Of a DNA stretch of 64,000 bases, positions 12,018 to 63,947 are shown one piece after another. The stretch covers positions 94-64,093 of the forward strand of contig JAGDCJ010000016.1 in the NCBI GenBank assembly GCA_017958565.1, given 5' to 3'. The DNA comes from Opitutales bacterium. Lineage in GTDB: Bacteria > Verrucomicrobiota > Verrucomicrobiia > Opitutales > UBA9783. How positions within the stretch are numbered: position 1 is the stretch's first letter; each line of letters starts with the position of its first letter. The position numbers were made by a program, and so were the translations under genes. The notes beneath the pieces are model-generated. The model was not told where the DNA came from. It searched no databases and saw only the letters and a program-made list of their open reading frames with translations.

Positions 12018-12299
12018 TGCTCACCAACAAGCCGAAAAAGCAAATTGCTCGCAAGCTTATTTCCGAAAAATAGAAAAATTTGTGAGTAAATAATCAACAA
12101 CAGAAAGAAGGGAACCAAAATATTTCTTGTTTTGTCCTTTTTCATTTTTTGTTCACACCCTGTTTGGGTAGGAAAGAAAAAGGAAAAAACAGGAAAAGAA
12201 GATTTGTTCACACTGATAAGGAGAATATAAATTTTTGTAAAATGTTTCTTATAGAAGAAAAGGCTTTCCGGCTTTCTAAAAAAACCATACAAGAGAATC

Positions 12300-50452: not shown

Positions 50453-51433
50453 TTAGTGTAGCGAAAACTTTTCTTTTGTCGAACCCAATCGTCTATTTTC
50501 AGCGGTTGCAAGGAATGTTCGGTTCCCGCGTAAAAATTCGGCAGAAGATATTGGTTTCTTTCCTGCTTTTTGAATACGGTCAATGACCAAAATGCCTTTC
50601 CCTGTACCAACTTGCAGGGTTTTCTGATGAGGATCGGTAAAAAACATCCCAGGCGTGAGAGAACGATCGATCATGTCTAAGACATGGGCTTGTAAGACCA
50701 AAAGCCGTTCATTTTTTTGGAAAAAATAAGCGCCAGGCCATGGTTGGAACGCACGAATGCGTCGTTCTAACTCGATAGCTGGTTGGGAAAAATCCAAACG
50801 GCCATCCATTTTGGTAATTTTTTTACAAAAGGTTGCTTGGGATTCTTCTTGCGGAATCAGGGTGTAGGAGCGAGAGAGGAGGCGAGGCAAGGATGTTTGT
50901 AAACATTCTGCGCTTGCTTGAGCCAATGTTTGCGTGAGTGTAAGAGTCGTATCGGTAGGAGCAATGGGTACTGTTTTCTGCATCAACCATGGACCTGCAT
51001 CCAATGCTTCTGTCATCGACATCAAGGTGACGCCAGTTTCACGATCTCCTTGCAAAAGAGCTGTTTGGATGGGAGAAGCACCGCGATACTTTGGCAATAA
51101 GGAGGTATGAAGATTCCACATTCCCAATGGCGGAATCGTTAAGAAGCGTTGGGGGAGCCGATGGCCAAACGAAAAGACGATACCCAGGGAAGGTTGTACG
51201 CTTTGCAGCCAATGAAAAGCAGCATCATCCAAGGTTTCAGCAGGATAAAAAGGAATTTGGTGTTCTTGTGCCCAAAGCGCTATTGGATTGGCGGTTTGCA
51301 TATGCCCACGACCTTTTGCACGTGCGGGTTGTGTGAGAATGCCGCACAAGGTGATGGTCGGTTCGTGTTGCAAAAATTCTAAGCACGGAAGCGAAATTTC
51401 GGAGGTGGAAAAAAACACCACGCGTGGGTTCAT
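50453..51433 (-). CDS. fmt: methionyl-tRNA formyltransferase
   Basis: I trimmed the start to ATG 51433 (MNPRVVFFSTSEISLPCLEFL). The catalytic region is NLHTSLLPKYRGASPIQ. The upstream part of the 436-aa ORF overlaps kdsA. Confidence 0.85.
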   Translation of the reverse strand: MNPRVVFFSTSEISLPCLEFLQHEPTITLCGILTQPARAKGRGHMQTANPIALWAQEHQIPFYPAETLDDAAFHWLQSVQPSLGIVFSFGHRLPQRFLTIPPLGMWNLHTSLLPKYRGASPIQTALLQGDRETGVTLMSMTEALDAGPWLMQKTVPIAPTDTTLTLTQTLAQASAECLQTSLPRLLSRSYTLIPQEESQATFCKKITKMDGRLDFSQPAIELERRIRAFQPWPGAYFFQKNERLLVLQAHVLDMIDRSLTPGMFFTDPHQKTLQVGTGKGILVIDRIQKAGKKPISSAEFLRGNRTFLATAENRRLGSTKEKFSLH

Positions 51434-52403: not shown

Positions 52404-53228
52404 CTATTTTTTCGTACAAACCGCAAACGTTCGACCTCGATCGCCGCTGGTTTTGCTCTGTAAACGAAATCGTTTGGTAACCTGAAAGTATGTTTGAAGA
52501 ATTTGGAACACTTTTTCGAGTTGGTCTTCCGATTCATAGCCAGGGAAATGCGATTCAAATAGCAATAAACCGTGATCGGCGCAATAAGCAGCGCATTTTT
52601 GAAAATATTCTTCTAATGTGTGTTGCGTATTGTGATCGTAGGTCGAATGATTGGCAAAAGAAAGAATGACTTCATACGTTGCCTTTTCTTGAACCTCTTC
52701 AAATCGTCCGGTAAACAGGCGAACATTGGTGTAGCCAAAATATTTTGCAACAGCGTTTCCGATTTGGATGCAATAGGGATTGATGTCAAAGCCCGTAATC
52801 GAGGAACAAATCGGAGCGAGTGAACAAGCCAGAAATCCGGTATTGGTACCGATATCGAAAACCATTTTCCCCGAAACGTACGATCGGAGTTGCATTTCAG
52901 CGATGCGTGTTTCAGTATTGCGGAGTCCACGGAGGTGAGCTGGCGGAAAGGATTGGTATAGATAACCTTTCCCATAATCATAAGAAGAGTAATGTTGCGC
53001 CTGCTCTTCTAAAATTTTTGCAATTTCATAATGCAGGGGTAATTGTTTTCGGATTTGGAAATAGTCGCACAGACGATTTAAAATGGAAGATCGCTTTTCT
53101 TCGTCTTTTTCTCGGTAAAACATTCGGAGAAAGATCGATAAAGCTTTGATAGGTTGCCATTTTCGATAAAGAAGGTCGGCTAATCCTTGGGCCTTCTGGG
53201 TTGCTCTGGGTTGCTCTGGGTTGCTCAT
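52404..53228 (-). CDS. class I SAM-dependent methyltransferase
   Basis: 274 aa. SAM motif I is VFDIGTNTGFLACSLA, and the post-I acidic residue is in ITGFDINP. The 5' end carries the 10-bp x3 tandem repeat listed below. Confidence 0.7.
   Translation of the reverse strand: MSNPEQPRATQKAQGLADLLYRKWQPIKALSIFLRMFYREKDEEKRSSILNRLCDYFQIRKQLPLHYEIAKILEEQAQHYSSYDYGKGYLYQSFPPAHLRGLRNTETRIAEMQLRSYVSGKMVFDIGTNTGFLACSLAPICSSITGFDINPYCIQIGNAVAKYFGYTNVRLFTGRFEEVQEKATYEVILSFANHSTYDHNTQHTLEEYFQKCAAYCADHGLLLFESHFPGYESEDQLEKVFQILQTYFQVTKRFRLQSKTSGDRGRTFAVCTKK
53195..53226. repeat. perfect 10-bp tandem repeat x3 (coding-strand unit GAGCAACCCA) plus 2 extra bases, starting at the last base of the methyltransferase start codon
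   Basis: The + strand reads tctgggttgc tctgggttgc tctgggttgc tc at 53195-53226, followed by 'at'. The - strand reads ATGAGCAACCCAGAGCAACCCAGAGCAACCCAGAAGG. The unit length is not a multiple of 3. Confidence 0.9.
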
Positions 53229-53261: not shown

Positions 53262-54404
53262 TCAAGCTTGGAATCGATGCAATAGGTAATTCGCTCCTTC
53301 TTGTGCTGCGTGATGAGGATGAAACACTTGCTGGATGTACAAATGGTGCAATGTATGTTTCCATTCGGAAGCATGCTGGAGTAGGTTTTCAACGATCGGC
53401 ACGATCTGTGGTAATTGATCTAAAGGCACGGCAACCCCCAATTGGTTTCGTAGTTGCAATTCAATGGGTTCGAGGTTGAGTGCGCGCCAATTCTGATTGT
53501 GTTCTTTGTACGGCGTATCGATGAACAATACCGGACGTTGCGTGCCGAAGGCGTATTCGAAAGCAATTCCCGAACGATCGGTCACGAGCAAGTCTGCTTC
53601 ATATAAGTTTTCTTCGGATAGAAGCGTATCTTCCCAAAAAAAGTTTGGAATGGCTTGTACGTGTGCTTTTAACGATTGGGCAGAACCGGCGCATCGTTTG
53701 AGAAATTCGGGATGGGGACGAACAATCACACGGTAAGGAGTTGTTTGGAGAGCTTCTAAAAGGGCGTCGATGCCGTTTACAAATAAGCTAGCGATGCTCC
53801 AAGTGGGGGCAATGAGTACAGTGGTTTGTCCCGGATATTTTTTCGTATAACGTTGATAGTTGCTTTCAATCCGTTCAATGCGCGGGTACCCGATGGATAG
53901 CAATCGTTTTTTGGGCAAAGAAAATTGTTGTTCACGTTTTTGAATTTCTTGGATATGGTGAGGACCGACACAAAAGATGGTATCGTAGGCATCAAAAGCG
54001 CGCTCGTTGTATTGCAAATGCGTGCTGGAGAACGAATGGAATAGGTAGACGTATTCGCGCGTTTTATTATTTTTTCTTACGTATAAGGTGTTTAAATCGG
54101 GCATTGTCATGACCAAACACGTTGCGTCGATGTGATCAAAGATCGATTTGATGAAAGCATTGAAGTAAAAGGGATAAACGCGTTCAGGATGGTTCGTTAA
54201 TATTGGGTCTTTGGGATCGCGGGTGAGATAACTACAGGTAAAATTTGGATCGCGAAGCAATTCGGTTAAAAAGGGCTCGAAGGTTTGATAATAAATATCT
54301 TTTTCGGAAAAAAAGGTAATGCGACGGTGAGGTGCGTGATTTTTCTGAAAAAAACGATTGAAAGAAGAAATTTCTCTTAACAGACTGGTAACATGCTTCC
54401 ACAT
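53262..54404 (-). CDS. TagF-like CDP-alcohol phosphotransferase family protein (CDP-glycerol glycerophosphotransferase fold)
   Basis: The pattern VLIAPTWS...VIVRPHPE...LYEADLLVTDRSGIAFEYAFGTQRPVLFIDTPY matches the Glyphos_transf motif (LYAPTWR...HP...aDiLITDYSS..fDf...kPiifF). The start is ATG 54404 or TTG 54413. Either one overlaps the 5' end of the divergent gene. Confidence 0.6.
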   Translation of the reverse strand: MWKHVTSLLREISSFNRFFQKNHAPHRRITFFSEKDIYYQTFEPFLTELLRDPNFTCSYLTRDPKDPILTNHPERVYPFYFNAFIKSIFDHIDATCLVMTMPDLNTLYVRKNNKTREYVYLFHSFSSTHLQYNERAFDAYDTIFCVGPHHIQEIQKREQQFSLPKKRLLSIGYPRIERIESNYQRYTKKYPGQTTVLIAPTWSIASLFVNGIDALLEALQTTPYRVIVRPHPEFLKRCAGSAQSLKAHVQAIPNFFWEDTLLSEENLYEADLLVTDRSGIAFEYAFGTQRPVLFIDTPYKEHNQNWRALNLEPIELQLRNQLGVAVPLDQLPQIVPIVENLLQHASEWKHTLHHLYIQQVFHPHHAAQEGANYLLHRFQA

Positions 54405-57386
54405 CCTCTCCAAGTTATCATATTAGGTGCCGGAAAAGCAAAACAATTAGTGGAGAATCCCTCTTTAGTCCGAGTAGGTATGGAACAGTGTACGTTGGAT
54501 TGGCTGTTGTGTGCCTTTGGAACGCATGCCGCTTTTACGTTTGTGGGGGGATATAAATTGGAAGAAATTACCAAGCGGTATCCGCAATTACAATTCCATG
54601 TGAACAACGATTGGCAACAGACCGGTTGCAACCTTTCTTTGAAATGGTCGCAATTTGATCCGAAAATTCCCGCCTTTGTTTGTTACGGGGATATTCTGTT
54701 GCGTCCCGAATTGTTAGAGAAAATGCGACAAGCAGGAGAGGATGCATCCGTCGATGCGGTGGTTGCCATCGATTCGGATCGTTCTTTGCTCACGACCAAA
54801 CCGTCGTACGAGAGAATGATGGGTGTGTTACATGGGAAAAAAAAGGAATATCCCTTTGTCGGATGCGTATATTTTCAACCCAAAGTTTTGCGTATTCTTC
54901 AGGAGCAGGATTGTTTTTCAAACCACTCTTTTCAACGGTTATCCGACGTGCTGGTTGCGTTAGGAAACGCTTCTGTGCGGTTTCAATGGGTTGATGCGCA
55001 TGGTTTGTGGGCAGAAGTTTTACGGCCGGTGGATGTTGCGCGGTTTGTCTTAACCACGAAAGCACAAACGTTATCGACGTTATCGAAGCGCATTACAAAG
55101 GCGCGCATTTTGCCAGAAGTTTATTTTTCCGTAAACGTTTGGCGGAAGCATTCGGAAGAGCAGATCGAGACGATTTTGCAAACCTTTGGTAAAAAGCCTT
55201 TGGTCGTCCGTAGTAGTTCTTTGCAGGAAGATGGTTTTGTAAAAGCCAATGCTGGAAAGTTTGAAAGTGTCGCACAGGTATGCCCCAATAAAGAGGCCAT
55301 TCGTAAGGCAGTAGAGACTGTCATTCGTTCCTATGGAACCAGCCAAGGCGAAGATCAAGTTTTGGTACAGCCGATGTTGGAAAATGTAGCGGTGAGCGGG
55401 GTTGTTTTTACACGTACGCTGCATTGGGCTGCGCCATATTATGTAGTGAATTACGACCAGCAAGATACCGCATCAGTAACAAGCGGTACCAGTAAGTACG
55501 ATGAAACATTTTATCATTGGAAAACAGCTCCGATTCCTTCTCATGCTCCTTGGTTTTATCCTTCCTTATATGCTTTGTTGCAAGAAATCGAGCAATGTAC
55601 CCAATTGGATGCGTTAGATGTAGAGTTCGCAGTGACGCAGCAAAAAGAATTGTACCTGTTTCAGGTCCGTCCCTTAACCTCGCAGCATTTGCGAGAAATT
55701 GAAGATGAGCAGTTGCAATCGCATCTAGAAGCGGCCGCAGAGCGTTTTGTTGCTTTACAGACACCACCGCCGGATATTCAAGGTGATGCAACCATTTTTG
55801 GCATCATGCCGGATTGGAACCCCGCTGAAATTGTCGGAACGAAACCGCATACGTTGGATATTTCGTTGTATCAAACTGTTATAACGAATTCGATTTGGGC
55901 GCAACAACGCGCAGAGTTTGGGTATCAAGATGTGCGTCCTTACCCGTTGATTGTCAATTTTGTGGGACATCCATATGTAGATGTGCGTGCGAGTATTCAT
56001 TCGTTCTTACCGGCTTCGCTTCCGAAAAAAACCACGCGGAAGCTAGTAACATTTTTCCTAGCGCGATTGAAGCAGCATCCAGCGTGGCACGATAAGTTGG
56101 AATTTATGGTGATGCCGACATGCTACGCGTTCGATTTTGAGGATCGCTGGAAGGAGGTTCTTTTGCAAGAAGCGCATTTGTCGGAAACGGAATATCAAAC
56201 CTACCGATCGGCTTTGCAAACATTGACGCAGTCGGCTTTTGAGAAATGCGATCGATTTTACGAGGAAATGTTGGCGATCGAAGCGCGTTTTGATCGAATT
56301 CAAGCATCGTCTTTGTCCACCGTAGATCAAATTTATGTGTTGTTGCAATCTTGTACAGTTGGTACTCTGAATTTTGCGCACTTAGCGCGCTGTGGGTTTA
56401 TTGCAAGTTCTTTGCTAAAATCCTTTGTCGCAAAAGGTTTGTTGTCTGAAGAGGAAAAGGATGCATGGCTGCATTCGATCCAAACCATTACTGGTCAGTT
56501 TTTTGAGACAACGCAAGCGGCTCTTGCGGGGAAAATAGATCGAGTAAGTGTTATCGAAAAGTACGGTCATTTGCGACCAGGAACCTATGATATTACCTCG
56601 CCTACCTATCGTTCCAATCCCGAAAAGTATCTTTTCCCACCTTCCTTTGGTTACAAGGAGAATACATCGGTACCTCAGCCACTGCCGCCGTCAAAGCCGT
56701 TTGTCGAAGCACTGCAGCAAACTTTTGGGCTTTCGTGGGAAGCTTTTCATCGATTTTTACACCATGCTATTGCAGGTCGAGAGTATTCTAAGTTTATTTT
56801 TACGCGTTATCTTTCTTGTGCCTTGGATGGCATTCAGAAAATCGGGGAAGAAAATGGTTTTTCTGCGGAGGAAATGGCGCATGTTCCCGTGTCGTTGTTT
56901 GAATCGTTGCGGTTAGGATTGGAATCGCCGCGAGACATCCATTCGTTGTTGAAGCGAGCAATCCAGCGAGGAGAGTGGTTGTATCGGGTTACGCAGAGTA
57001 TCGAATTGCCGCCGCTTTTAACGCAAAAGAGTGATTTCTTTTCTTTTTTTACGCAAAAAACCTTGCCAAATTTTATTGGCAATCAGTGTGCTGAAGCGCC
57101 GTTGGTGTATTTGGAAAATTCGCAGCAAATCGAAGGAGAGCGATTAAAAGGGAAATTTGTGTTGATTGAAAAAGCAGACCCTGGCTTTGATTGGATTTTC
57201 AATTATCAGATTGCTGGATTATTGACGGCTTATGGAGGACCGAATTCGCATATGGCCATTCGCTCAGCGGAATTCCAGATTCCAGCAGCGATTGGCATCG
57301 GAGAAGCATTGTTTTCATCCTTGAAAAGTGCACAGTTTGTGCAGTTGGATTGCATCCATCATCGATTGGTGGTGCTTCGATCGTAA
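54393..57386 (+). CDS. fusion protein: N-terminal nucleotidyltransferase-like domain + PEP-utilising/PPDK-type ATP-grasp kinase with swivelling phosphohistidine domain (Cj1418 L-glutamine kinase-like)
   Basis: 997 aa. Residues 1-~220 form an NTase fold (QVIILGAGKAKQL, CYGDILL). Residues ~270-560 form a PPDK_N-type ATP-binding region (LVVRSSSLQEDGFVKANAGKFESV). The C-terminal mobile domain has phosphohistidine motif GGPNSHMAIRSAEFQIPAAIGIG, with the His at about residue 953 (nt 57249-57251). Confidence 0.7.
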   Translation: MLPHPLQVIILGAGKAKQLVENPSLVRVGMEQCTLDWLLCAFGTHAAFTFVGGYKLEEITKRYPQLQFHVNNDWQQTGCNLSLKWSQFDPKIPAFVCYGDILLRPELLEKMRQAGEDASVDAVVAIDSDRSLLTTKPSYERMMGVLHGKKKEYPFVGCVYFQPKVLRILQEQDCFSNHSFQRLSDVLVALGNASVRFQWVDAHGLWAEVLRPVDVARFVLTTKAQTLSTLSKRITKARILPEVYFSVNVWRKHSEEQIETILQTFGKKPLVVRSSSLQEDGFVKANAGKFESVAQVCPNKEAIRKAVETVIRSYGTSQGEDQVLVQPMLENVAVSGVVFTRTLHWAAPYYVVNYDQQDTASVTSGTSKYDETFYHWKTAPIPSHAPWFYPSLYALLQEIEQCTQLDALDVEFAVTQQKELYLFQVRPLTSQHLREIEDEQLQSHLEAAAERFVALQTPPPDIQGDATIFGIMPDWNPAEIVGTKPHTLDISLYQTVITNSIWAQQRAEFGYQDVRPYPLIVNFVGHPYVDVRASIHSFLPASLPKKTTRKLVTFFLARLKQHPAWHDKLEFMVMPTCYAFDFEDRWKEVLLQEAHLSETEYQTYRSALQTLTQSAFEKCDRFYEEMLAIEARFDRIQASSLSTVDQIYVLLQSCTVGTLNFAHLARCGFIASSLLKSFVAKGLLSEEEKDAWLHSIQTITGQFFETTQAALAGKIDRVSVIEKYGHLRPGTYDITSPTYRSNPEKYLFPPSFGYKENTSVPQPLPPSKPFVEALQQTFGLSWEAFHRFLHHAIAGREYSKFIFTRYLSCALDGIQKIGEENGFSAEEMAHVPVSLFESLRLGLESPRDIHSLLKRAIQRGEWLYRVTQSIELPPLLTQKSDFFSFFTQKTLPNFIGNQCAEAPLVYLENSQQIEGERLKGKFVLIEKADPGFDWIFNYQIAGLLTAYGGPNSHMAIRSAEFQIPAAIGIGEALFSSLKSAQFVQLDCIHHRLVVLRS

Positions 57387-57398
57387 GATAAAAGGTCG

Positions 57399-58010
57399 AT
57401 GACAGCTAAAACCTACCTTCGCATCGGTGTCACGCAACGATTTGATATCGTGGAAGATCGGCAGGAAATTCGCGATGCCTTAGATCAGCAATGGACCGTT
57501 TGGTTGCAAAAGCAAGGATTTTTATGCGTTCCGATTCCCAATCGTTGCGATGTTCCCTTGTGGATCGAACAGGTACACCTGGATGGATTGTTGTTGAGCG
57601 GCGGTGGTGATCATCCGACACGTACAGCGTGTGAATCTGCCTGTTTCCGTTATGCGGTTGAGCATCACCTGCCTGTGTTAGGAGTATGTCACGGGATGCA
57701 AGCAATAGCAAAATATTTTGGCGCCCATCTCGTTCCGATCGAAGGACATGTGCGGGTTTTGCATGAAGTCACGATTTTGGCGAACACTTGGCAAATCCCA
57801 ACAGGAAAGCTGACCGTCAATTCCTACCATCATCAGACAATCGACCGCCTTCCGGAAGGATTTTTGCCTTTAGCAACCGATGAACAAGGGCATTGGGAAG
57901 CAATGGTTCATGCGTCGCTTCCGTTCCTCAGTATGATGTGGCATCCCGAGCGGCCGCCCTTTTACGATTGGTTTTCTGCTTTTTTGCATCGATGGTATGA
58001 GAAATGTTAA
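57399..58010 (+). CDS. class I glutamine amidotransferase-like gamma-glutamyl hydrolase (Peptidase_C26/PuuD-type; Cj1417-like)
   Basis: 203 aa. The nucleophile elbow is LGVCHGMQ, and the His-Glu pair lies in MMWHPERP. Confidence 0.8.
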   Translation: MTAKTYLRIGVTQRFDIVEDRQEIRDALDQQWTVWLQKQGFLCVPIPNRCDVPLWIEQVHLDGLLLSGGGDHPTRTACESACFRYAVEHHLPVLGVCHGMQAIAKYFGAHLVPIEGHVRVLHEVTILANTWQIPTGKLTVNSYHHQTIDRLPEGFLPLATDEQGHWEAMVHASLPFLSMMWHPERPPFYDWFSAFLHRWYEKC

Positions 58011-58734
58011 AGTGTTTGTTTTATGTGCGGGGGAAGGACAGCGGCTGCGTCCTTATACGGAGCATCAACCAAAGTGTTTAGTTCCTTATCGCGGAAAGCC
58101 ACTATTGCAATACCAATTGGATGTTTTTCAGCAATTGCACATCACCGATATTACTCTCATCGGTGGGTATCGAGCGGAAGCATTGCCGAAAAACTACCCA
58201 ATCGTTATCAATCCCGATTATGCAACAACAAACATGGTGTATAGCTTGTTTTGTGCTCGTTCGCGCATGACGGAAGACGCAGATTGTATCGTGAGTTATG
58301 GAGATATCCTTTATCACGCCTCGGTTTTGCAAACTTTATTGGAGGATCCGCATCCCATTGGGGTCGTAACGGATGATCATTGGAAAGCTTACTGGTCTCA
58401 GCGCATGGGCGATCCATTGCAAGATGCGGAAACGTTTCGATGGGAAGAAACGACGCATCGATTGTTGGAATTGGGGAAGAAACCAACATCCTTATCGGAT
58501 ATTCAAGGGCAGTACATTGGTTTGGTGAAAATTTCCGCTTCAGAAGTCATTCGTTTTCAACAAACGTATGGTGCGTTTGTAAGGGTTACGCCAACGTATC
58601 GAACCGCTTACATGACGGATTTAATACAATTTTGTATTGATCAAAAGCTTCCTGTCTTTGGTGTGCCCATCAAGGGACGATGGGCGGAATTTGATACCGT
58701 GACCGATTTAACGATGGAGCGGGACATTGTATAA
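57997..58734 (+). CDS. nucleotidyltransferase (LicC/Cj1416-type cytidylyltransferase)
   Basis: 245 aa. VFVLCAGEGQRLRPYTEHQPKCLVP is the NTP-binding loop. NMVYSLFCA and SYGDILY are typical of the LicC-like family. It overlaps the preceding gene by 14 nt. Confidence 0.8.
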   Translation: MRNVKVFVLCAGEGQRLRPYTEHQPKCLVPYRGKPLLQYQLDVFQQLHITDITLIGGYRAEALPKNYPIVINPDYATTNMVYSLFCARSRMTEDADCIVSYGDILYHASVLQTLLEDPHPIGVVTDDHWKAYWSQRMGDPLQDAETFRWEETTHRLLELGKKPTSLSDIQGQYIGLVKISASEVIRFQQTYGAFVRVTPTYRTAYMTDLIQFCIDQKLPVFGVPIKGRWAEFDTVTDLTMERDIV

Positions 58735-59606: not shown

Positions 59607-62600
59607 TTACACCATTCCTTTCCTTTGGAGCACTCTTTGAAGATCGTTTAAGCAACGTTCTTTATCTGCATAAAAATTAGAACTTCGGATGCGGAAAAAT
59701 TCCCATCCGCAACGTTCCAGTTGCTCTTGGCGTTGTTGATCAGATTCGTATTGTTCAGGACCGTGCCAATAATCACCATCGCACTCAACTGCGAGGCGTT
59801 GATGCCCCGCTTCAATCACTAAATCGATACGTCTCCCTGCGATACGATACTGTGAAATAACACGTAATTTGCGATGTAATAGTTCAAGCGCAACATCTAC
59901 TTCAAACCAACTATCAAAAGGTTCTGGAGCCTTGATAAGGGAACGATCATCTTGTAAAGCGTGTTGCTCGAGTTCTACTAATGACAATCCTGCTATTGAT
60001 TGTTGTTGCTGTGGCTTTAAAAAAAACGCCAACAGACGATAACGTAAATCTGATGAATTGAGATCTTCTAGTCCTAAGGAATGAAAAAGAAACATTTGGT
60101 TACGTGCACGACTGGCGGCAACATTGAAACGTTGTTGATCAGCTGATTTTGTTAAGGTTCCATTGCGTACATTCGTAGCTGCTACCATGGATAAAAAAAT
60201 AACATCTCGTTCATCTCCTTGAAAATGATAAGGATCACCGCAAAGGAGATTCCGTTTTTCATATTCTTTTGTGGATAATCGCGTTAATAATAGTCCTTGA
60301 ATAAAAATCGCTTGTCGTTGTCCCTGTAGGCTAATAACTCCCATTGTTGCATCTTTGTAGCGTGGATCGCGACAACATTCACAAATTTTATCACAAATAG
60401 CTTGTGCTTCTGGTTGATTAACTACACTAGATCCTGTTCCTTCGCGATAACCATTTTGAACAAAGATGTGTTGTATCGGAGGAAGTGAATAAGCATCCTG
60501 TCTCAAAGGAATAAGTGGCGTTTTTGAATAACAAAGATCATTACTGAAAGCAATTATTTCGGGTAGGCATCGAAAATGTTCGCGTAGGGTTACACAATGA
60601 GTACCGCAGTGTAAGCACGCTTGATCAAATAAGCTGCTATCCGGTTGCAAAGTATCTACATAGTCAAAATCGAACAAATATTTTTTATGAAGTTTGATCA
60701 TATCTTCCGTTTTGATTCCAATACTTTGCGGACTTATTTGTTGATTATCACCAACAACTATCATTTTTTTTGTCAATCCGAATAAAAAAATTCCTTCCAG
60801 TCCACACTGAGAAGCTTCGTCTACAATTATCACATCGAAAGGATTTTTTGCTGAAATAGTGCTGATGACACGATACAAAGGCATAATCCAAGCTGGAATT
60901 ACATCTTTGCATTTTTCTAAATGCTGTTGTGCCTCTTTTTGATGTATCCACGCATACTTTCCTATTCCTTTGCCTACTCTTTTTAATGCTAGTTGCCATG
61001 CCTGCATATGGAGATAATGGGAATCGGAAAGATTTTTTAATGTATTATTCCATGCATGATAAACTGCTAATGATAATAGCTGTTTTTGAATTTCTTTATC
61101 TACTTGGTGTATGCGTTTTTGTACGGAAATGGCATTTTCTTTTTTTTGATATGTTTCTAGCCAATCGGCAGCTTCTTTCCAATAATATCCTTTATCGAAT
61201 TCTTCGATGTGTTCTAGAACTTTTTCTGTTATCTCGTTCGTTTCAAGTGTTTTAATAAAATGCGGAAAATATTTTACTAATTTTTCATGTATCGATTCCC
61301 ATGTTTTAAATCGTGAAAACATATCTGATCTTTTCTGATTTTCTTCGACAAGTTTTTGGTAAGTTGAAGTATATAAATCAGCTTTCTTTTCTCTAATAGC
61401 ACACAAAAGTGTACTTACCATCGGATGTTTGTCATGAGGTAACCACTGCTGTTTTAAGTTTTCAAACGTACGTTTGCATGATGATTGTTCTTCCAATATT
61501 TCAATAAATTTAGAAAGATCTTTTATCTTATCATACGGTAATTCCAAACAAGCCCTCAAATAAGTATGAGAGAAACCTTCTTCCTTTAAAGATAGGGAAA
61601 AATTCAACATTATATTTATATGTTGAATTTGCTTTAACATGTTATCCCAACTTTCATCTGTAAGATGAAAATTTGTACTTACTGATTTTAGTGAGCGTTT
61701 AATTTCGAGACACTTTTTTACGAGTTCAAAATCGTCTTTTGTTTTCAAAGTATGACCTTCGCAGGAGATTTCTTCCAATACATAGGAACGTGTTTTAAGA
61801 ATTTTGGGGCGAAACCATAAATGCCTTAGTTTACCCCCACGTTCTAGGTGTTGCAGTACGCAAAGGATATCGGTAAAAAGTTTTTCTAAAGGAATTCCTT
61901 CGGGTAGGATTAATGTCGCGAGTTTCGAGCGATGTAAGTCTATTTCTTTGCCTAAACTCTGTAAACACTGATAACGATTATCCCATTCTTTCATTTCCCC
62001 TCGTTCAAATGCCATTAAAAATGGTTTCATCCACTGGTTATCAGAACTCTGTCGTTCTTGTGCAATGAGTTGTATCTTTTTCAAAGAAGATCGTAAAAGC
62101 TCTGTATTTCCTTTCCGATATTCATCGTACAGCCATTCGATGAACGCCTTATCGTATAAAGAGGCGAGGGTTACAAGACTTGATGATAAACATTGTTCCC
62201 TATGTAGGAGATCTTCAAAGAATTTTGGTTCTGTCTTATGTGGAATAGGAATCGGTTTTTCAAGTTTAAAATTTTCTTTGTGAAAACATTTGGAGTCCTC
62301 GACAAAGGAGTTTAAGGCTTGCTTTAAAACATCAAAATTTTGAAAAGCGTTTTTAAAATCAACCGTCTTGTCTAGGAACCATTCATATGGGTTTCGTCCT
62401 TCTTGTATCTGTTGAACGATATGCGTAGGAGTTCCACTATAAAGATCGTTGATTTTTACTACGTCAGTTTCTTTTTTGCGTCCAGCTTTGAGATCTTGAT
62501 TTAACGTTACGCGCTCTTTGCGCAACCTATCTAACTGCTCTTTACAAGTTTTTGCTTTTCTTTCTTCTTTTTCTTGTTCCCAAGTATTTTTTTGAGAAAA

Positions 62601-63947
62601 AAAGGAATTGATGGAAGCGCGCAGCTCATTCGATATTTTGTTCTGATCACCAAATGCTTCAATACACAAATCTTGTACTTCTTTTGGTAATTTTTCTTTA
62701 ATGACTTGCAACGCACGATCCGTTTGTGCAGTTATCAACAACCGTTTTCCTTTTGCTAACAAATGGCAAGTAAGGTTGGCGATGGTATGCGATTTTCCGG
62801 TTCCAGGAGGTCCTTGAACAACTACTATATTGGAATGTTTCAAATGGTCTACAATCTTCTGCTGTTCACTATTCGATGGATTTGGGAAATAAACTTCAGG
62901 ATCGGAATCGTAAGATGTATTTGTATCAGTTTCCGTTTGTGATTCTTCTGCATCGCATTCTGCAAACCCACGAAGTATTTGTGAAACAGTTCCACTTTCT
63001 GCTTGTTGATTTAATTCATCTAAACGTTGCTCTAATGGTTGTATGGAACGTTCTCGCAAAAATATAGCTGGAGCAAATTGAATAATAGGTATGCAGAGAG
63101 CTTCTTGAGGTTTTAACCCTTGTTCATAGACGCCTTTTGCATCCAATTGGTGTGCAATGGATGTGAGCAAATACTCGATAGATTTTCGTTCACAGAGGCT
63201 TGTCCCTAATTCGTTAAGACATGCCTTCATGGTTTCAGTGAGGCGCAGTTCCTTCGCTTTCTGGGGCAACATATTTGTTCCCAATTTCACATGAAGGCAG
63301 TTTGTGTTTACACTTACTGTTAAGGTTCCTTCTTCATCCAGTTGAATTTCTGCTTCAACTGTTAATAAGTGTCGTTTAATATATAAAGGGGGTATCATCT
63401 CTGTATTTGTTTCAATCGTTTGTGGTTTAATCGTTTTATATTGTATTTTCCATTGTAATAACCCTACACCGACACAACATTCCATAAATTCAGAGGAACG
63501 TTTCAATTCCAGATATACGTTGAATAGGTTTATGTAATTCTGTTGCGAAACTTTATACCTTTCATTTTCCTTCTTGTAAGCTTCATAACTGGCTTCAATT
63601 TTTTGGAACGCTTGTTGAATAGAGTCATTTAAAGAATGTGTTTCCTCTTTTATTTTCTGTGATTGTTTTAAGAAGCACTTTCCTTCTTCAATCCCTATAT
63701 ATTCGCAATATTTTTCCGGGATCTTTGGTGCATTCGGCTTTACTGGACGCTGTAATTTAAATAAAATTCCCTCTTGCTTTGACGCATTGCACTTTAACAA
63801 AGAGCTGATGCAACCATCGGATTGGCATAAATCATCTAGCCAAAGACATGCGTGGTAATGATCTAATGAATATACCGGTTTCTTTCGTAACTTCGAAAAC
63901 TCTTTCAAGAAACGAAAAAATCGCAACAATTTTTCATTTTTTACCAT
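59607..63947 (-). CDS. SF1 (Upf1/DNA2-like, AAA_11/AAA_12) helicase fused to a C-terminal DUF559/Vsr-like PD-(D/E)xK endonuclease
   Basis: 1446 aa. Motif I is VVVQGPPGTGKSHT (residue ~379), motif II is IIVDEASQ (~1043) and motif III is VVGDNQQISP. Motifs V and VI are GDERDVIFLSMV and RFNVAASRARNQMFLF. The C-terminal nuclease is RRIDLVIEAGHQRLAVECDGDYWHGPEQYESDQQRQEQLERCGWEFFRI. About 650 aa of helical insertion separate motifs I and II. The gene is visibly more AT-rich than the rest of the window. Confidence 0.85.
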   Translation of the reverse strand: MVKNEKLLRFFRFLKEFSKLRKKPVYSLDHYHACLWLDDLCQSDGCISSLLKCNASKQEGILFKLQRPVKPNAPKIPEKYCEYIGIEEGKCFLKQSQKIKEETHSLNDSIQQAFQKIEASYEAYKKENERYKVSQQNYINLFNVYLELKRSSEFMECCVGVGLLQWKIQYKTIKPQTIETNTEMIPPLYIKRHLLTVEAEIQLDEEGTLTVSVNTNCLHVKLGTNMLPQKAKELRLTETMKACLNELGTSLCERKSIEYLLTSIAHQLDAKGVYEQGLKPQEALCIPIIQFAPAIFLRERSIQPLEQRLDELNQQAESGTVSQILRGFAECDAEESQTETDTNTSYDSDPEVYFPNPSNSEQQKIVDHLKHSNIVVVQGPPGTGKSHTIANLTCHLLAKGKRLLITAQTDRALQVIKEKLPKEVQDLCIEAFGDQNKISNELRASINSFFSQKNTWEQEKEERKAKTCKEQLDRLRKERVTLNQDLKAGRKKETDVVKINDLYSGTPTHIVQQIQEGRNPYEWFLDKTVDFKNAFQNFDVLKQALNSFVEDSKCFHKENFKLEKPIPIPHKTEPKFFEDLLHREQCLSSSLVTLASLYDKAFIEWLYDEYRKGNTELLRSSLKKIQLIAQERQSSDNQWMKPFLMAFERGEMKEWDNRYQCLQSLGKEIDLHRSKLATLILPEGIPLEKLFTDILCVLQHLERGGKLRHLWFRPKILKTRSYVLEEISCEGHTLKTKDDFELVKKCLEIKRSLKSVSTNFHLTDESWDNMLKQIQHINIMLNFSLSLKEEGFSHTYLRACLELPYDKIKDLSKFIEILEEQSSCKRTFENLKQQWLPHDKHPMVSTLLCAIREKKADLYTSTYQKLVEENQKRSDMFSRFKTWESIHEKLVKYFPHFIKTLETNEITEKVLEHIEEFDKGYYWKEAADWLETYQKKENAISVQKRIHQVDKEIQKQLLSLAVYHAWNNTLKNLSDSHYLHMQAWQLALKRVGKGIGKYAWIHQKEAQQHLEKCKDVIPAWIMPLYRVISTISAKNPFDVIIVDEASQCGLEGIFLFGLTKKMIVVGDNQQISPQSIGIKTEDMIKLHKKYLFDFDYVDTLQPDSSLFDQACLHCGTHCVTLREHFRCLPEIIAFSNDLCYSKTPLIPLRQDAYSLPPIQHIFVQNGYREGTGSSVVNQPEAQAICDKICECCRDPRYKDATMGVISLQGQRQAIFIQGLLLTRLSTKEYEKRNLLCGDPYHFQGDERDVIFLSMVAATNVRNGTLTKSADQQRFNVAASRARNQMFLFHSLGLEDLNSSDLRYRLLAFFLKPQQQQSIAGLSLVELEQHALQDDRSLIKAPEPFDSWFEVDVALELLHRKLRVISQYRIAGRRIDLVIEAGHQRLAVECDGDYWHGPEQYESDQQRQEQLERCGWEFFRIRSSNFYADKERCLNDLQRVLQRKGMV

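What the first reader, a model, noticed from the sequence alone, without database searches (positions are those of the whole stretch)
54393..58734. A Campylobacter MeOPN-type phosphoramidate activation module (glutamine kinase / gamma-glutamyl hydrolase / cytidylyltransferase) in a different genomic background, with an extra fused nucleotidyltransferase domain and no Cj1415-type kinase
**Seen in sequence.** Three co-directional, overlapping or near-abutting genes are present.
- The first encodes a PPDK/PEP-synthase-type ATP-grasp plus swivelling phosphohistidine enzyme (VVRSSSLQEDG...; GGPNSHMAIRSAEFQIPAAIG).
- The second encodes a 203-aa class I amidotransferase-fold hydrolase (GVCHGMQ, WHPE).
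- The third encodes a 245-aa LicC-like NTP transferase (LCAGEGQRLRP).

**Established knowledge.** In C. jejuni NCTC 11168 the capsule O-methyl phosphoramidate pathway uses four enzymes.
- Cj1418 is the same PEP-utiliser fold. It is an ATP-dependent L-glutamine kinase that makes L-glutamine phosphate.
- Cj1416 is a CTP:phosphoglutamine cytidylyltransferase that makes CDP-L-glutamine.
- Cj1417 is a gamma-glutamyl hydrolase that releases cytidine diphosphoramidate.
- Cj1415 is a 3'-kinase.
- They are transcribed in the order 1418-1417-1416-1415, and the first three match the order here.

**Differences from the paradigm.**
- The kinase carries an additional ~220-aa N-terminal nucleotidyltransferase-like domain, so the locus has two NTase modules.
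- No APS-kinase-like Cj1415 homolog follows. The next sequence is a small ORF and then an AT-rich spacer.

**Inference.** The locus may build a CDP-activated phosphoramidate, or a related P-N or gamma-glutamyl-phosphate compound, by a variant route. This would be a glycan modification not described for this kind of organism.
Basis: partly seen in the sequence, partly recalled or inferred. Interest (0 to 1): 0.78.

Follow-up and report, generated by a model that had tools for sequence, protein, structure and literature searches.

The report
Kinase-free phosphoramidate glycan-decoration gene cassette
A gut Opitutales bacterium carries five genes that probably attach a phosphorus–nitrogen (phosphoramidate) group to a surface sugar; it is a widespread, undescribed variant of the Campylobacter capsule pathway in which a teichoic-acid-type transferase replaces the usual extra kinase step.

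Summary
**Observation:** confirmed. The three ORFs, their motifs and their overlaps are as described.

**What the genes are**
- Residues 214-995 of the 997-aa protein match NCBIfam NF004508, the ~780-aa PEP-utiliser family found in Campylobacter-type loci, at 842 bits (cut-off 501).
- The 203-aa protein's best family is gamma-glutamyl-CDP-amidate hydrolase.
- The 245-aa protein is a canonical cytidylyltransferase.

- Two divergent genes complete the module: a TagF-like CDP-X phosphotransferase (53262-54404, −) and a SAM methyltransferase (52404-53228, −).

**Comparison with other genomes**
- At least 594 species genomes from more than a dozen phyla carry the kinase.
- Loci with the fused kinase usually have the TagF-like gene and lack an APS-kinase-like gene (3/42).
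- Loci with the unfused kinase have the APS-kinase-like gene (9/10), sulfotransferase-like genes and no TagF-like gene.
- The unfused loci form a single clade, so these counts reflect roughly one evolutionary event.

**The N-terminal domain**
- It is a paralogue of the cytidylyltransferase.
- It has lost the invariant Arg and Lys and has a 5-residue deletion in the phosphate-binding loop.
- It is probably not a second active nucleotidyltransferase.

**Best reading:** CDP-amidate is made as in Campylobacter, then used directly by the TagF-like enzyme. This is a new variant of a known kind and has no biochemical support yet.

The parts
54393..55031 (+). N-terminal domain (residues 1-213) of the 997-aa protein: a nucleotidyltransferase-fold paralogue of the cytidylyltransferase with a degenerate phosphate-binding loop.
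   Evidence: - It aligns end to end with the stand-alone cytidylyltransferases (A2).
- 62/65 copies have a 5-residue deletion in the phosphate-binding loop.
- Arg16, Lys26, Asp143, Gln172 and Asp233 of the stand-alone enzymes are not conserved.
- Retained residues: Tyr98, Asp100, Asp127, Glu140, Trp206, Glu208 and Asp214.
- AlphaFold2 pLDDT 87.2.
- Foldseek top matches are IPCT, RmlA, PntC, GlmU and LicC, TM 0.61-0.74.
- This domain type occurs only fused to the kinase: 324 clusters, and the short hits are fragments of fused proteins.
55032..57386 (+). Kinase core (residues 214-997): ATP-grasp plus swivelling phosphohistidine domain; a predicted L-glutamine kinase of the Cj1418 family.
   Evidence: - NF004508 scores 842.5 bits (cut-off 501) over model positions 5-788 of 789. 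PEP synthase, PigC and similar models score 49 bits or less.
- Pfam finds PPDK_N and PEP-utilizers.
- Arg273-Ser274-Ser275, Glu279-Asp280 and Gly948-Gly949-x-Asn951-Ser952-His953 are invariant in 27 homologues.
- JGI names the fused homologues P0033 and P0110 'glutamine kinase'.
57249..57251 (+). Codon of His953, the predicted phospho-carrier histidine of the swivelling domain.
   Evidence: - It lies in the motif GGPNSHMAIRSAE.
- It is invariant in alignment A1.
- It falls within the PF00391 match, residues 923-987.
57399..58010 (+). 203-aa class I amidotransferase-fold hydrolase; predicted gamma-glutamyl-CDP-amidate hydrolase (Cj1417-like).
   Evidence: - Its best NCBIfam match is NF045546 at 96.9 bits (E 1.6e-27), full length. 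This is below the equivalog cut-off of 250; the next family scores 61 bits.
- Cys97, His182 and Glu184 are conserved in 80-82 of 82 locus homologues.
- A homologue is present in 52/52 loci with good flanks.
57997..58734 (+). 245-aa canonical cytidylyltransferase (Cj1416-like; COG1213 / LicC-like).
   Evidence: - Pfam NTP_transf_3, 54.5 bits.
- Closest solved structure by sequence is LicC, 1jyk.
- Gly14, Arg16, Thr21, Pro25, Lys26, Asp103, Asp143, Glu145, Gln172, Trp229, Glu231 and Asp233 are invariant in 78/78 locus homologues, in both fused-type and unfused-type loci.
- A homologue is present in 52/52 loci.
53262..54404 (-). TagF-like (GT-B fold) CDP-X phosphotransferase, 380 aa from the ATG at 54404; the predicted phosphoramidate transferase.
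   Evidence: - Pfam Glyphos_transf, 39.4 bits (cut-off 22.1).
- AlphaFold2 pLDDT 93.2.
- Foldseek top matches are TagF (3l7j, 3l7i; E 1e-12), then TagF-like capsule polymerases 8qoy and 8a0c.
- His126, His132 and Arg232-Pro-His234-Pro are invariant in 25 homologues.
- A close homologue sits next to the triad in 24/42 fused loci and 0/10 unfused loci.
52404..53228 (-). 274-aa class I SAM-dependent methyltransferase; predicted to O-methylate the phosphoramidate, either on the donor or on the product.
   Evidence: - Pfam Methyltransf_25 / _31.
- Homologues with E down to 1e-95 occur in 15 other loci, all of the fused type. These include Planctomycetota, and Actinomycetota where it is a C-terminal domain.
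- It is unrelated to the Methyltransf_11 family found in the unfused loci.

Best explanation
The window encodes a five-gene module that makes and installs a phosphoramidate group, probably O-methylated, on a cell-envelope glycan. It does so by a route that skips the Campylobacter 3'-kinase step.

**Proposed steps**
1. [quoted passage not shown]
2. The 245-aa cytidylyltransferase condenses L-glutamine phosphate with CTP to give CDP-L-glutamine.
3. The 203-aa Cys-His-Glu hydrolase removes glutamate and leaves cytidine diphosphoramidate (CDP-amidate).
4. The divergently encoded TagF-like enzyme uses CDP-amidate directly as a CDP-X donor. A sugar hydroxyl attacks the beta-phosphorus and CMP leaves. 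The PAPS-like 3'-phospho donor, and hence a Cj1415-type kinase, is therefore not needed.
5. The adjacent SAM methyltransferase methylates the phosphoramidate oxygen, on the CDP-linked donor or on the glycan.

**The N-terminal domain.** It is a catalytically degraded duplicate of the cytidylyltransferase. It most likely docks the active enzyme or binds a nucleotide or intermediate, which would couple or regulate steps 1 and 2.

**Status of the steps**
- Steps 1-3 are inferred from family membership and conserved catalytic residues.
- Steps 4-5 and the role of the N-terminal domain are inferred from comparative genomics and from precedent.
- Nothing here is shown biochemically.
For: **Family assignments**
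- The family matches and conserved catalytic residues of the three core genes are as listed under parts.

**Conservation of the triad**
- The three genes occur together in 52/52 loci with at least 5 kb of flank on both sides.
- At least 594 species genomes carry the kinase.

**Two gene sets (unless stated)**
- Fused loci (n=42):
  - close TagF-like gene in 24;
  - more distant Glyphos_transf genes in L023, L034 and L046;
  - a CDP-alcohol phosphotransferase in L058;
  - an APS-kinase-like gene in only 3.
- Unfused loci (n=10):
  - APS-kinase-like gene in 9 (PF01583 and NF004041);
  - TagF-like gene in 0;
  - sulfotransferase-like neighbours.
- Fisher p = 5.6e-7 for the kinase and 9.5e-4 for TagF.
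- NCBI PGAP annotation of plasmid copies shows the same two gene sets: Vibrio alfacsensis against Azospirillum lipoferum.

**The TagF-like protein**
- High-confidence model whose best structural match is TagF, followed by CMP-bound TagF-like polymerases.

**Precedent and pathway from the literature**
- In C. difficile FtaABCD, a TagF-like enzyme installs a phospho-X group on a glycan from a CDP-X donor, and a methyltransferase acts on that donor (bioRxiv 10.64898/2026.02.12.704994).
- The Campylobacter pathway and its proposed donor, CDP-phosphoramidate 3'-phosphate, are described in PMC11800397.

**Context**
- kdsA lies immediately downstream of the methyltransferase on the same strand (NF003543, 352 bits).
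- lpxB and an rfaE-domain-II gene are also in the window.
- In Marinobacter the cassette sits inside an LPS-core cluster.
Against: - No enzyme of this fused type has been assayed.
- The Campylobacter sequences could not be obtained, so no direct comparison with Cj1416-1418 was made.
- The hydrolase scores below NCBI's equivalog cut-off (96.9 against 250). A hydrolase from an APS-kinase-containing locus also does (120).
- The unfused loci form one clade in the kinase tree. The association between fusion, TagF and absence of the kinase therefore reflects roughly one evolutionary event, not many independent ones.
- 18/42 fused loci lack a close TagF-like neighbour.
- Some fused loci have sulfotransferase-fold neighbours but no APS kinase: four Marinobacter loci and L044.
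- Three fused loci do have an APS-kinase-like gene: L049, L054 and L077.
- The rest of this genome is unavailable, so a Cj1415-type kinase encoded elsewhere cannot be excluded.
- The acceptor sugar is unknown.
Confidence: 0.6

Rival explanations
1. The triad makes CDP-amidate exactly as in Campylobacter. The true donor is still the 3'-phosphorylated form, made by an APS-kinase-like enzyme encoded elsewhere in the genome. The TagF-like gene and the methyltransferase are unrelated neighbours, for example for a glycerol- or ribitol-phosphate decoration.
For: - Only one 64-kb contig of the genome is available.
- Three fused loci do carry an APS-kinase-like gene: L049, L054 and L077.
- Marinobacter loci and L044 have sulfotransferase-fold neighbours.
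- 18/42 fused loci lack a close TagF-like gene.
Against: - Adjacency of the TagF-like gene to the triad recurs across Verrucomicrobiota, Proteobacteria, Planctomycetota, Actinomycetota, Chlamydiales, Cyanobacteria and Bacteroidota. The gene order differs between them: divergent here, co-directional elsewhere.
- No CDP-glycerol- or CDP-ribitol-forming gene lies next to it here.
- 39/42 fused loci have no APS-kinase-like gene within 8 kb, whereas 9/10 unfused loci keep it adjacent.
- The window contains no sulfotransferase-like ORF at all.
Confidence: 0.15
2. The TagF-like enzyme transfers the whole phospho-glutamine group from CDP-L-glutamine onto the glycan, as FtaD does with phospho-N-methylthreonine. 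The hydrolase then acts afterwards or only edits. Alternatively, the kinase of the fused clade phosphorylates an amide or amine other than L-glutamine, so the product is a different P-N or phosphodiester decoration.
For: - FtaD is a precedent for transfer from a CDP-amino-acid donor.
- The hydrolase and the cytidylyltransferase fall below, or lack, equivalog-level models.
- The fused kinases are only about 31-42% identical to the unfused ones over the kinase core.
Against: - The hydrolase is present in 52/52 loci with an intact triad, and its best family is the CDP-amidate hydrolase.
- The kinase core matches the same equivalog model, full length, as kinases of APS-kinase-containing loci: 842 against 908 bits.
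- If the hydrolase acted after transfer, the final product would still be a phosphoramidate.
Confidence: 0.15
3. The N-terminal domain is an active second nucleotidyltransferase with a non-canonical phosphate-binding loop. It might itself cytidylylate glutamine phosphate, leaving the 245-aa enzyme to activate another substrate.
For: - The nucleotidyltransferase fold is kept.
- Tyr-x-Asp (62/65), Asp126, Glu145, Trp229 and Glu231 (stand-alone numbering) are retained.
- A basic residue follows GAG in 44/65 copies.
- The domain has persisted across more than a dozen phyla.
Against: - Six residues that are invariant in 78/78 stand-alone enzymes are lost: Arg16, Thr21, Lys26, Asp143, Gln172 and Asp233.
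- 62/65 copies have a 5-residue deletion in the triphosphate-binding loop.
- In this window even the second metal-ligand position is Leu.
- The canonical 245-aa enzyme is kept in every fused locus (42/42). This argues against the N-terminal domain being a redundant catalyst.
Confidence: 0.2

Closest known systems
Campylobacter jejuni O-methyl phosphoramidate (MeOPN) pathway: Cj1418, Cj1417, Cj1416, Cj1415 and the transferases Cj1421/Cj1422
   Same: - The same three enzyme families in the same gene order: PEP-utiliser-type kinase, class I amidotransferase-fold hydrolase, and COG1213-type cytidylyltransferase.
- The same predicted intermediate, CDP-amidate.
- A methyltransferase is associated.
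- The target is a surface glycan.
   Different: - The kinase carries an N-terminal degenerate cytidylyltransferase paralogue.
- There is no APS-kinase-like 3'-kinase.
- Sulfotransferase-like proteins neighbour the kinase in the unfused, APS-kinase-containing loci; here the transferase is TagF-like (GT-B fold) instead.
- The methyltransferase belongs to a different family from the one in the unfused loci.
- The predicted donor is CDP-amidate itself, not its 3'-phosphate.
Clostridioides difficile FtaABCD flagellin Type A glycan modification (bioRxiv 10.64898/2026.02.12.704994)
   Same: - The logic is cytidylyltransferase, then CDP-X, then a TagF-like phosphotransferase that puts phospho-X on a sugar hydroxyl.
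- A small class I SAM methyltransferase is involved and acts on the CDP-linked donor.
   Different: - There X is (N-methyl)threonine, joined by a P-O bond and made from phosphoserine or phosphothreonine.
- Here X is predicted to be NH2, made through glutamine phosphate and a hydrolase.
- No PEP-utiliser kinase or amidotransferase-fold hydrolase takes part in the Fta pathway.
TagF/TarF teichoic-acid CDP-glycerol or CDP-ribitol phosphotransferases and TagF-like capsule polymerases (PDB 3L7I, 8QOY, 8A0C)
   Same: - GT-B fold.
- A Pfam PF04464 match.
- The best structural matches.
- CMP is the leaving group in those enzymes.
   Different: - Only 13-16% sequence identity.
- No sequence-level match to any PDB entry.
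- It is a single 380-aa domain with no polymerase context.
- The predicted donor has an amide in place of an alcohol.
Pseudo-nucleotidyltransferase partners such as GMPPA with GMPPB (from my own knowledge, not tested here)
   Same: A catalytically impaired paralogue of an active nucleotidyltransferase is retained alongside the active enzyme, presumably for regulation or assembly.
   Different: - Here the paralogue is fused to the upstream kinase rather than being a separate subunit.
- No interaction or ligand binding has been shown.
Unmethylated phosphoramide substituents on the LPS cores of Xanthomonas campestris and Shewanella MR-4 (PMC8042644, PMC3210612, PMC3907429)
   Same: - A P-N group on an envelope glycan outside Campylobacter.
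- In Marinobacter the cassette lies in an LPS-core gene neighbourhood.
   Different: - No genetic link was tested. Whether those strains carry the cassette could not be checked with the searches that remained.

Membership tests
L-glutamine kinase family (Cj1418; EC 2.7.3.13; NCBIfam NF004508/PRK05849) | Full-length match to the family model above its curated cut-off. | tested here: met
   - 842.5 bits against a cut-off of 501, residues 214-995 on model positions 5-788 of 789.
- An unfused kinase from an APS-kinase-containing locus scores 907.7 bits on the same model.
- That Cj1418 itself seeds this model is my inference; I did not verify it.
L-glutamine kinase family (Cj1418; EC 2.7.3.13; NCBIfam NF004508/PRK05849) | ATP-grasp (PPDK_N) domain plus a swivelling phosphohistidine domain with the conserved His. 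| tested here: met
   - PF01326 and PF00391 match.
- His953 in GGxNSH is invariant in 27 homologues.
L-glutamine kinase family (Cj1418; EC 2.7.3.13; NCBIfam NF004508/PRK05849) | Stand-alone architecture of about 780 aa. | tested here: not met
   There is a 213-residue N-terminal nucleotidyltransferase-fold extension.
L-glutamine kinase family (Cj1418; EC 2.7.3.13; NCBIfam NF004508/PRK05849) | [quoted passage not shown] | not testable with these tools
   This needs an enzyme assay.
Gamma-glutamyl-CDP-amidate hydrolase (Cj1417; NCBIfam NF045546) | Score above the equivalog cut-off. | tested here: not met
   - 96.9 bits against a cut-off of 250. It is still the best family by 35 bits and the match is full length.
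- A hydrolase from a canonical-type locus also fails the cut-off, at 120 bits.
Gamma-glutamyl-CDP-amidate hydrolase (Cj1417; NCBIfam NF045546) | Class I amidotransferase Cys-His-Glu triad, and adjacency to the kinase and the cytidylyltransferase. | tested here: met
   - Cys97, His182 and Glu184 are conserved in 80-82 of 82 homologues.
- The gene is adjacent in 52/52 loci.
CTP:phosphoglutamine cytidylyltransferase (Cj1416) | Canonical nucleotidyltransferase signature: GxGxR, PK and the metal-binding Asp residues. | tested here: met
   Gly14, Arg16, Lys26, Asp103 and Asp233 are invariant in 78/78 homologues.
CTP:phosphoglutamine cytidylyltransferase (Cj1416) | Orthology to Cj1416 itself. | tested here: inconclusive
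   - The libraries hold no family-specific model and no Cj1416 sequence.
- Homologues in APS-kinase-containing loci match at E 1e-33 to 1e-53 and share all invariant residues.
Campylobacter-type MeOPN system as a whole | An APS-kinase-like CDP-amidate 3'-kinase (Cj1415 type). | tested here: not met
   - None in the 64-kb window.
- Absent within 8 kb in 39/42 fused loci.
- The rest of this genome was not available.
Campylobacter-type MeOPN system as a whole | A sulfotransferase-like phosphoramidate transferase. | tested here: not met
   - No ORF in the window matches the sulfotransferase-like proteins of the unfused loci.
- That Cj1421/Cj1422 belong to that family was not verified. One search found only Lachnospiraceae relatives.
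TagF-type CDP-X phosphotransferases (Pfam PF04464) | A Pfam match above the gathering score, and a GT-B fold closest to TagF. | tested here: met
   - 39.4 bits against a cut-off of 22.1.
- Foldseek top matches 3l7j and 3l7i, E 1e-12, TM 0.57-0.62.
TagF-type CDP-X phosphotransferases (Pfam PF04464) | Catalytic histidine pair, equivalent to TagF His444 and His584. | tested here: inconclusive
   - His126, His132 and His234 are invariant in the family.
- No residue-level superposition was possible.
- There was no sequence-level PDB match.
Active sugar / phospho-alcohol nucleotidyltransferases (for the N-terminal domain) | Nucleotidyltransferase fold. | tested here: met
   pLDDT 87; TM 0.61-0.74 to IPCT, RmlA, PntC, GlmU and LicC.
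Active sugar / phospho-alcohol nucleotidyltransferases (for the N-terminal domain) | GxGxR...PK triphosphate-binding signature. | tested here: not met
   - 5-residue deletion in 62/65 copies.
- Lys26 column: Ser 30, Ala 12, Pro 10, Thr 3 and Arg 3 of 65; Lys is not among the common residues.
- Arg16 column: Arg in 19/65; Gln in this window.

The most novel reading that the evidence does not exclude
**Claim.** Phosphoramidate (P-N) decoration of envelope glycans is not a Campylobacter speciality. It would be a widespread trait in more than a dozen bacterial phyla, installed mostly by a second, undescribed pathway type.

**Features of that pathway type**
- CDP-amidate is used directly by TagF-like transferases, and occasionally by CDP-alcohol-phosphotransferase-type enzymes.
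- There is no PAPS-like 3'-phospho intermediate.
- The glutamine kinase carries a built-in pseudo-cytidylyltransferase domain that couples or regulates the first two steps.

**Consequence.** This cassette would be the missing genetic basis for the orphan phosphoramide groups reported on the LPS cores of Xanthomonas and Shewanella.
Probability: 0.4. Interest if true: 0.75.

Novelty: new variant of a known kind. Interest (0 to 1): 0.6.

Why it matters
**How this differs from the current view**
- Reviews held in the paper library describe MeOPN as known only from Campylobacter (PMC6429109).
- They call the glutamine kinase 'C. jejuni-specific' (PMC9561416).
- Here the same three-enzyme core occurs in at least 594 species genomes.

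**Consequences if the proposed route is right**
1. P-N-containing surface glycans would be common. That is relevant to phage receptors, serum resistance and innate immune recognition in many bacteria, including gut Verrucomicrobiota, Pseudomonas, Legionella, Vibrio and Chlamydiales.
2. There would be a second, simpler chemical logic for phosphoramidate transfer, which makes CDP-amidate a bona fide group donor.
3. The LPS phosphoramide groups of Xanthomonas and Shewanella would gain candidate genes.
4. The fused domain would be a clear bacterial example of a pseudo-nucleotidyltransferase kept as a module of a biosynthetic kinase.

**Testability.** All of this can be tested in cultivable carriers.

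Tried and rejected
- **Direct comparison with Cj1416-1418: not possible.**
  - No Campylobacter sequence could be obtained from any collection.
  - The single genome-contig scan returned the 80 closest loci, none from Campylobacter.
- **Raushel-laboratory papers not held**: PMC5629633, PMC5938751, PMC5938747 and PMC6643271.
- **Sequence searches of the PDB**
  - The 997-aa protein and the TagF-like protein, alone or as a profile, found nothing.
  - The hydrolase and the cytidylyltransferase hit only generic relatives.
- **The Foldseek afdb50 library** would have carried UniProt names for the Cj proteins. It was not installed.
- **Last protein search.** I used it on a sulfotransferase-like 599-aa neighbour from an unfused locus, hoping to reach Cj1421/Cj1422. 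It found only Lachnospiraceae proteins.
- **Promoter and terminator scan of 52-59.7 kb.** It gave fewer hits than the shuffled controls and was uninformative.
- **E. coli CysC query.** Its hits were therefore rechecked and confirmed as PF01583 and NF004041.
- **Rejected: the formyltransferase gene at 50453-51400 as part of the module.** Formyl_trans_N-like domains do recur in other fused-type loci, but this gene is ordinary fmt (TIGR00460, 247 bits against a cut-off of 201.5).
- **Rejected: stand-alone versions of the N-terminal domain.** The short hits are fragments that run on into the kinase core.
- **Rejected as strong statistics: the Fisher tests.** The unfused loci form one clade.

Full report
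**1.

- The three co-directional ORFs are at the stated coordinates:
  - 54393-57386, 997 aa;
  - 57399-58010, 203 aa;
  - 57997-58734, 245 aa.
- A 12-nt gap separates the first two, and the last two overlap by 14 nt.
- Every quoted motif is present.
- Pfam finds:
  - PPDK_N and PEP-utilizers in the first protein;
  - GATase / Peptidase_C26 in the second;
  - NTP_transf_3 in the third.
- The exact protein is on record as a hypothetical protein (J6Z25_01050) of a metagenome-assembled Opitutales (Verrucomicrobiota) genome. Its contig is 64,255 bp, so the window is almost the whole contig.

**2. Family assignments**

*Kinase core*
- Residues 214-995 of the 997-aa protein match NCBIfam NF004508 (PRK05849) at 842.5 bits against a cut-off of 501, over the full model.
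- PEP synthase, PPDK, PigC/RedH and rifampin phosphotransferase models score 49 bits or less.
- An unfused 794-aa homologue from a locus that also has an APS-kinase-like gene scores 908 bits on the same model.
- JGI names two fused homologues 'glutamine kinase'.
- The RSS/ED ATP-grasp motif and GGxNSH (His953) are invariant in 27 homologues.

*Hydrolase*
- Its best family is gamma-glutamyl-CDP-amidate hydrolase, NF045546: 96.9 bits, full length. The next family scores 61 bits.
- This is below the strict equivalog cut-off of 250. A hydrolase from a canonical-type locus also falls below it, at 120 bits.
- The Cys97 / His182 / Glu184 triad is conserved in 80-82 of 82 locus homologues.

*Cytidylyltransferase*
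- The 245-aa protein is a canonical nucleotidyltransferase. The closest solved structure by sequence is LicC.

**3.

- Upstream on the minus strand lie a 380-aa Glyphos_transf (PF04464) protein at 53262-54404 and a 274-aa SAM methyltransferase at 52404-53228. kdsA follows them.
- The Glyphos_transf protein gives an AlphaFold2 model with pLDDT 93.
- The model's best PDB matches are the teichoic-acid polymerase TagF (E 1e-12), then TagF-like capsule polymerases, one of them solved with CMP.

**4. Comparative genomics**

*Spread*
- A pattern scan of one genome per species found at least 594 genomes with a relative of the kinase.
- They include:
  - Verrucomicrobiota;
  - Alpha-, Beta- and Gammaproteobacteria (Pseudomonas, Marinobacter, Legionella, Rheinheimera);
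  - Bacteroidota, Planctomycetota, Acidobacteriota, Cyanobacteria, Chloroflexota and Actinomycetota;
  - Chlamydiales, Bdellovibrionota, Spirochaetales, Pelagibacteraceae and Firmicutes.

*Method*
- I scanned six-frame ORFs of 84 loci with the window's proteins and with an APS kinase.
- I clustered the neighbouring genes and checked cluster representatives against Pfam and NCBIfam.

*Counts in the 52 loci with at least 5 kb on both sides*

| Feature | Fused kinase (n=42) | Unfused kinase (n=10) |
|---|---|---|
| Hydrolase | 42 | 10 |
| Cytidylyltransferase | 42 | 10 |
| Close TagF-like gene | 24 | 0 |
| Window-type methyltransferase | 12 | 0 |
| APS-kinase-like gene | 3 | 9 |

*Other neighbours*
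- Further fused loci have more distant Glyphos_transf genes (L023, L034, L046) or a CDP-alcohol phosphatidyltransferase (L058).
- The unfused loci carry:
  - APS-kinase-like genes that match PF01583 and NF004041/PRK05541;
  - a different methyltransferase family (Methyltransf_11);
  - sulfotransferase-like proteins.
- NCBI's own annotation of plasmid copies shows the same two gene sets:
  - Vibrio alfacsensis pYa108: PEP-utilizing enzyme, hydrolase, cytidylyltransferase and a CDP-glycerol glycerophosphotransferase family protein.
  - Azospirillum lipoferum AZO_p6: adenylyl-sulfate kinase, methyltransferase, PEP-utilizing enzyme, hydrolase, cytidylyltransferase and sulfotransferases.

*Caveats*
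- In a neighbour-joining tree of the kinase cores, all 14 unfused proteins form one clade. The Fisher p-values (5.6e-7 and 9.5e-4) therefore overstate independence.
- There are exceptions:
  - L049, L054 and L077 are fused but have an APS-kinase-like gene.
  - The Marinobacter loci and L044 are fused, have sulfotransferase-fold neighbours and lack that kinase.

**5. The N-terminal domain**

- It aligns along its whole length with the stand-alone cytidylyltransferases. It shares their family-specific insertion and their Y-x-D, W-x-E and D-L motifs, so it is a duplicate of that enzyme.
- In 78/78 stand-alone enzymes, from both locus types, these residues are invariant: Gly14, Arg16, Thr21, Pro25, Lys26, Asp103, Asp143, Glu145, Gln172, Trp229, Glu231 and Asp233.
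- In 65 N-terminal domains:
  - the loop Leu17-Thr21 is deleted in 62;
  - the Lys26 position is Ser, Ala or Pro in 52;
  - the Arg16 position is Arg in only 19 (Gln in this window);
  - Asp143 and Gln172 are replaced;
  - Asp233 is Asn in 36 (Leu in this window).
- The fold is kept: pLDDT 87, with TM 0.61-0.74 to IPCT, RmlA, PntC, GlmU and LicC.
- A search of 1.84 billion cluster representatives found 324 clusters with this domain. The long hits carry it at the N-terminus of ~1000-aa proteins. Six short hits that I read all continue into the start of the kinase core, so they are fragments.
- The canonical 245-aa enzyme is retained in every fused locus.
- Three fused loci still have an APS-kinase-like gene.
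- From these two facts, the domain's role seems tied to the first steps (kinase and cytidylyltransferase) rather than to the choice of final donor.
- I consider a non-catalytic docking, channelling or ligand-sensing role the most likely (about 0.6). An active non-canonical transferase cannot be excluded.

**6. Proposed mechanism**

- Steps 1-3, inferred by homology:
  1. Gln + ATP gives glutamine phosphate.
  2. Glutamine phosphate + CTP gives CDP-glutamine.
  3. Hydrolysis gives CDP-amidate + Glu.
- PMC11800397 summarises these as the Campylobacter reactions. There Cj1415 then makes CDP-phosphoramidate 3'-phosphate, the likely donor.
- Step 4, inferred from gene association and enzyme class: the TagF-like enzyme uses CDP-amidate directly and releases CMP, which makes the 3'-kinase unnecessary.
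- Step 5, inferred: the methyltransferase produces the O-methyl form.
- The closest experimental precedent for steps 4-5 is C. difficile FtaC and FtaD. There a TagF-like enzyme transfers phospho-N-methylthreonine from a CDP-linked donor that has first been methylated.
- The acceptor is unknown.
  - kdsA, lpxB and a heptose-1-phosphate adenylyltransferase gene in the window hint at LPS.
  - The LPS-core context in Marinobacter points the same way.

**7. Comparison with what is known, and novelty**

- Reviews held in the library state that MeOPN has been found only in Campylobacter (PMC6429109). They call the glutamine kinase C. jejuni-specific (PMC9561416).
- A Borg preprint notes a MeOPN-like cluster in archaeal extrachromosomal elements.
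- Unmethylated phosphoramide groups are chemically known on the LPS cores of Xanthomonas campestris and Shewanella MR-4. The passages I read name no biosynthetic genes for them.
- I found no description of the fused, TagF-associated, kinase-free arrangement in the 23 papers that mention 'glutamine kinase'.
- It is therefore a new variant of a known kind of system, not a new kind.
- The window's copy is one ordinary member of a large, uncharacterised clade. It is conserved at 57-62% identity in related Opitutales and Puniceicoccales genomes.

**8. Limits**

- There is no biochemistry.
- No Campylobacter sequences were available.
- Only one contig of this genome could be examined.
- The comparative sample is biased toward relatives of the query.
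- The associations rest on few independent evolutionary events.

Noticed in passing
window 54393-54404: The ATG of the 997-aa gene (+) and the ATG of the TagF-like gene (−; MWKH..., which matches NCBI's 380-aa model) overlap head to head by 12 nt. The two divergent genes therefore share no intergenic promoter region. Conserved N-terminal blocks leave little room for other start codons.
   Followed up: partly
window 59607-63947 (−): A 1446-aa protein with AAA_11/AAA_12 helicase domains and a C-terminal REase_MTES_1575 / DUF559 nuclease. GC content is 0.35-0.36 against 0.44-0.47 in the neighbouring sequence. It is probably a horizontally acquired defence or mobile gene and is not part of the cassette.
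   Followed up: no
L001 15970-17556; L048 15638-16816 (about 10 loci): A YidC/Oxa1-like (60KD_IMP) paralogue sits next to the TagF-like gene in about 10 fused-type loci. JGI even labels many of the TagF-like proteins 'YidC/Oxa1 family membrane protein insertase'. This may be a membrane partner of the transferase.
   Followed up: no
L047 15718-17775; L051 7149-9017; L060 10913-12676; L001 17561-18931; L049 8559-9980: A weak Formyl_trans_N-like domain recurs in fused-type loci. In Actinomycetota it is fused N-terminally to the methyltransferase; in Pseudomonas and Rheinheimera it stands alone. Its function is unknown. The window's own formyltransferase gene (50453-51400, −) is ordinary fmt.
   Followed up: partly
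L058 14447-15439 (−): In one deltaproteobacterial genome the triad is followed by a CDP-alcohol phosphatidyltransferase (PF01066) instead of a TagF-like gene. That is a second class of CDP-X-using transferase associated with the fused kinase.
   Followed up: no
L002, L013, L017, L020 (Marinobacter); L044: In these fused-type loci the nearest candidate transferase has a sulfotransferase fold (Sulfotransfer_3 or Sulfotransfer_1), yet no APS-kinase-like gene lies within 10 kb. In Marinobacter the cassette is embedded in an LPS-core cluster with heptosyltransferase, Kdo kinase, WaaY and O-antigen ligase genes. The TagF-based model does not explain this arrangement.
   Followed up: partly
L084 (Vibrio alfacsensis pYa108); L085 (Azospirillum lipoferum AZO_p6); 14 plasmid records in all: Both pathway types occur on large plasmids. 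The Azospirillum copy has an 846-aa protein annotated as adenylyl-sulfate kinase, which suggests the 3'-kinase is fused to another domain there.
   Followed up: partly
GenBank MT837632.1 (9.5-kb 'Bacteriophage sp.' contig, human faeces), positions 673-2988: An unfused homologue of the kinase (31.7% identity over 77% of the query) lies on a contig labelled as phage. The record has no annotation.
   Followed up: no
window ~12000-14000: GC skew changes sign from negative to positive, and the predominant coding strand switches, near 12-14 kb. This may be a replication origin or terminus. dnaN is at 37013-38158.
   Followed up: no
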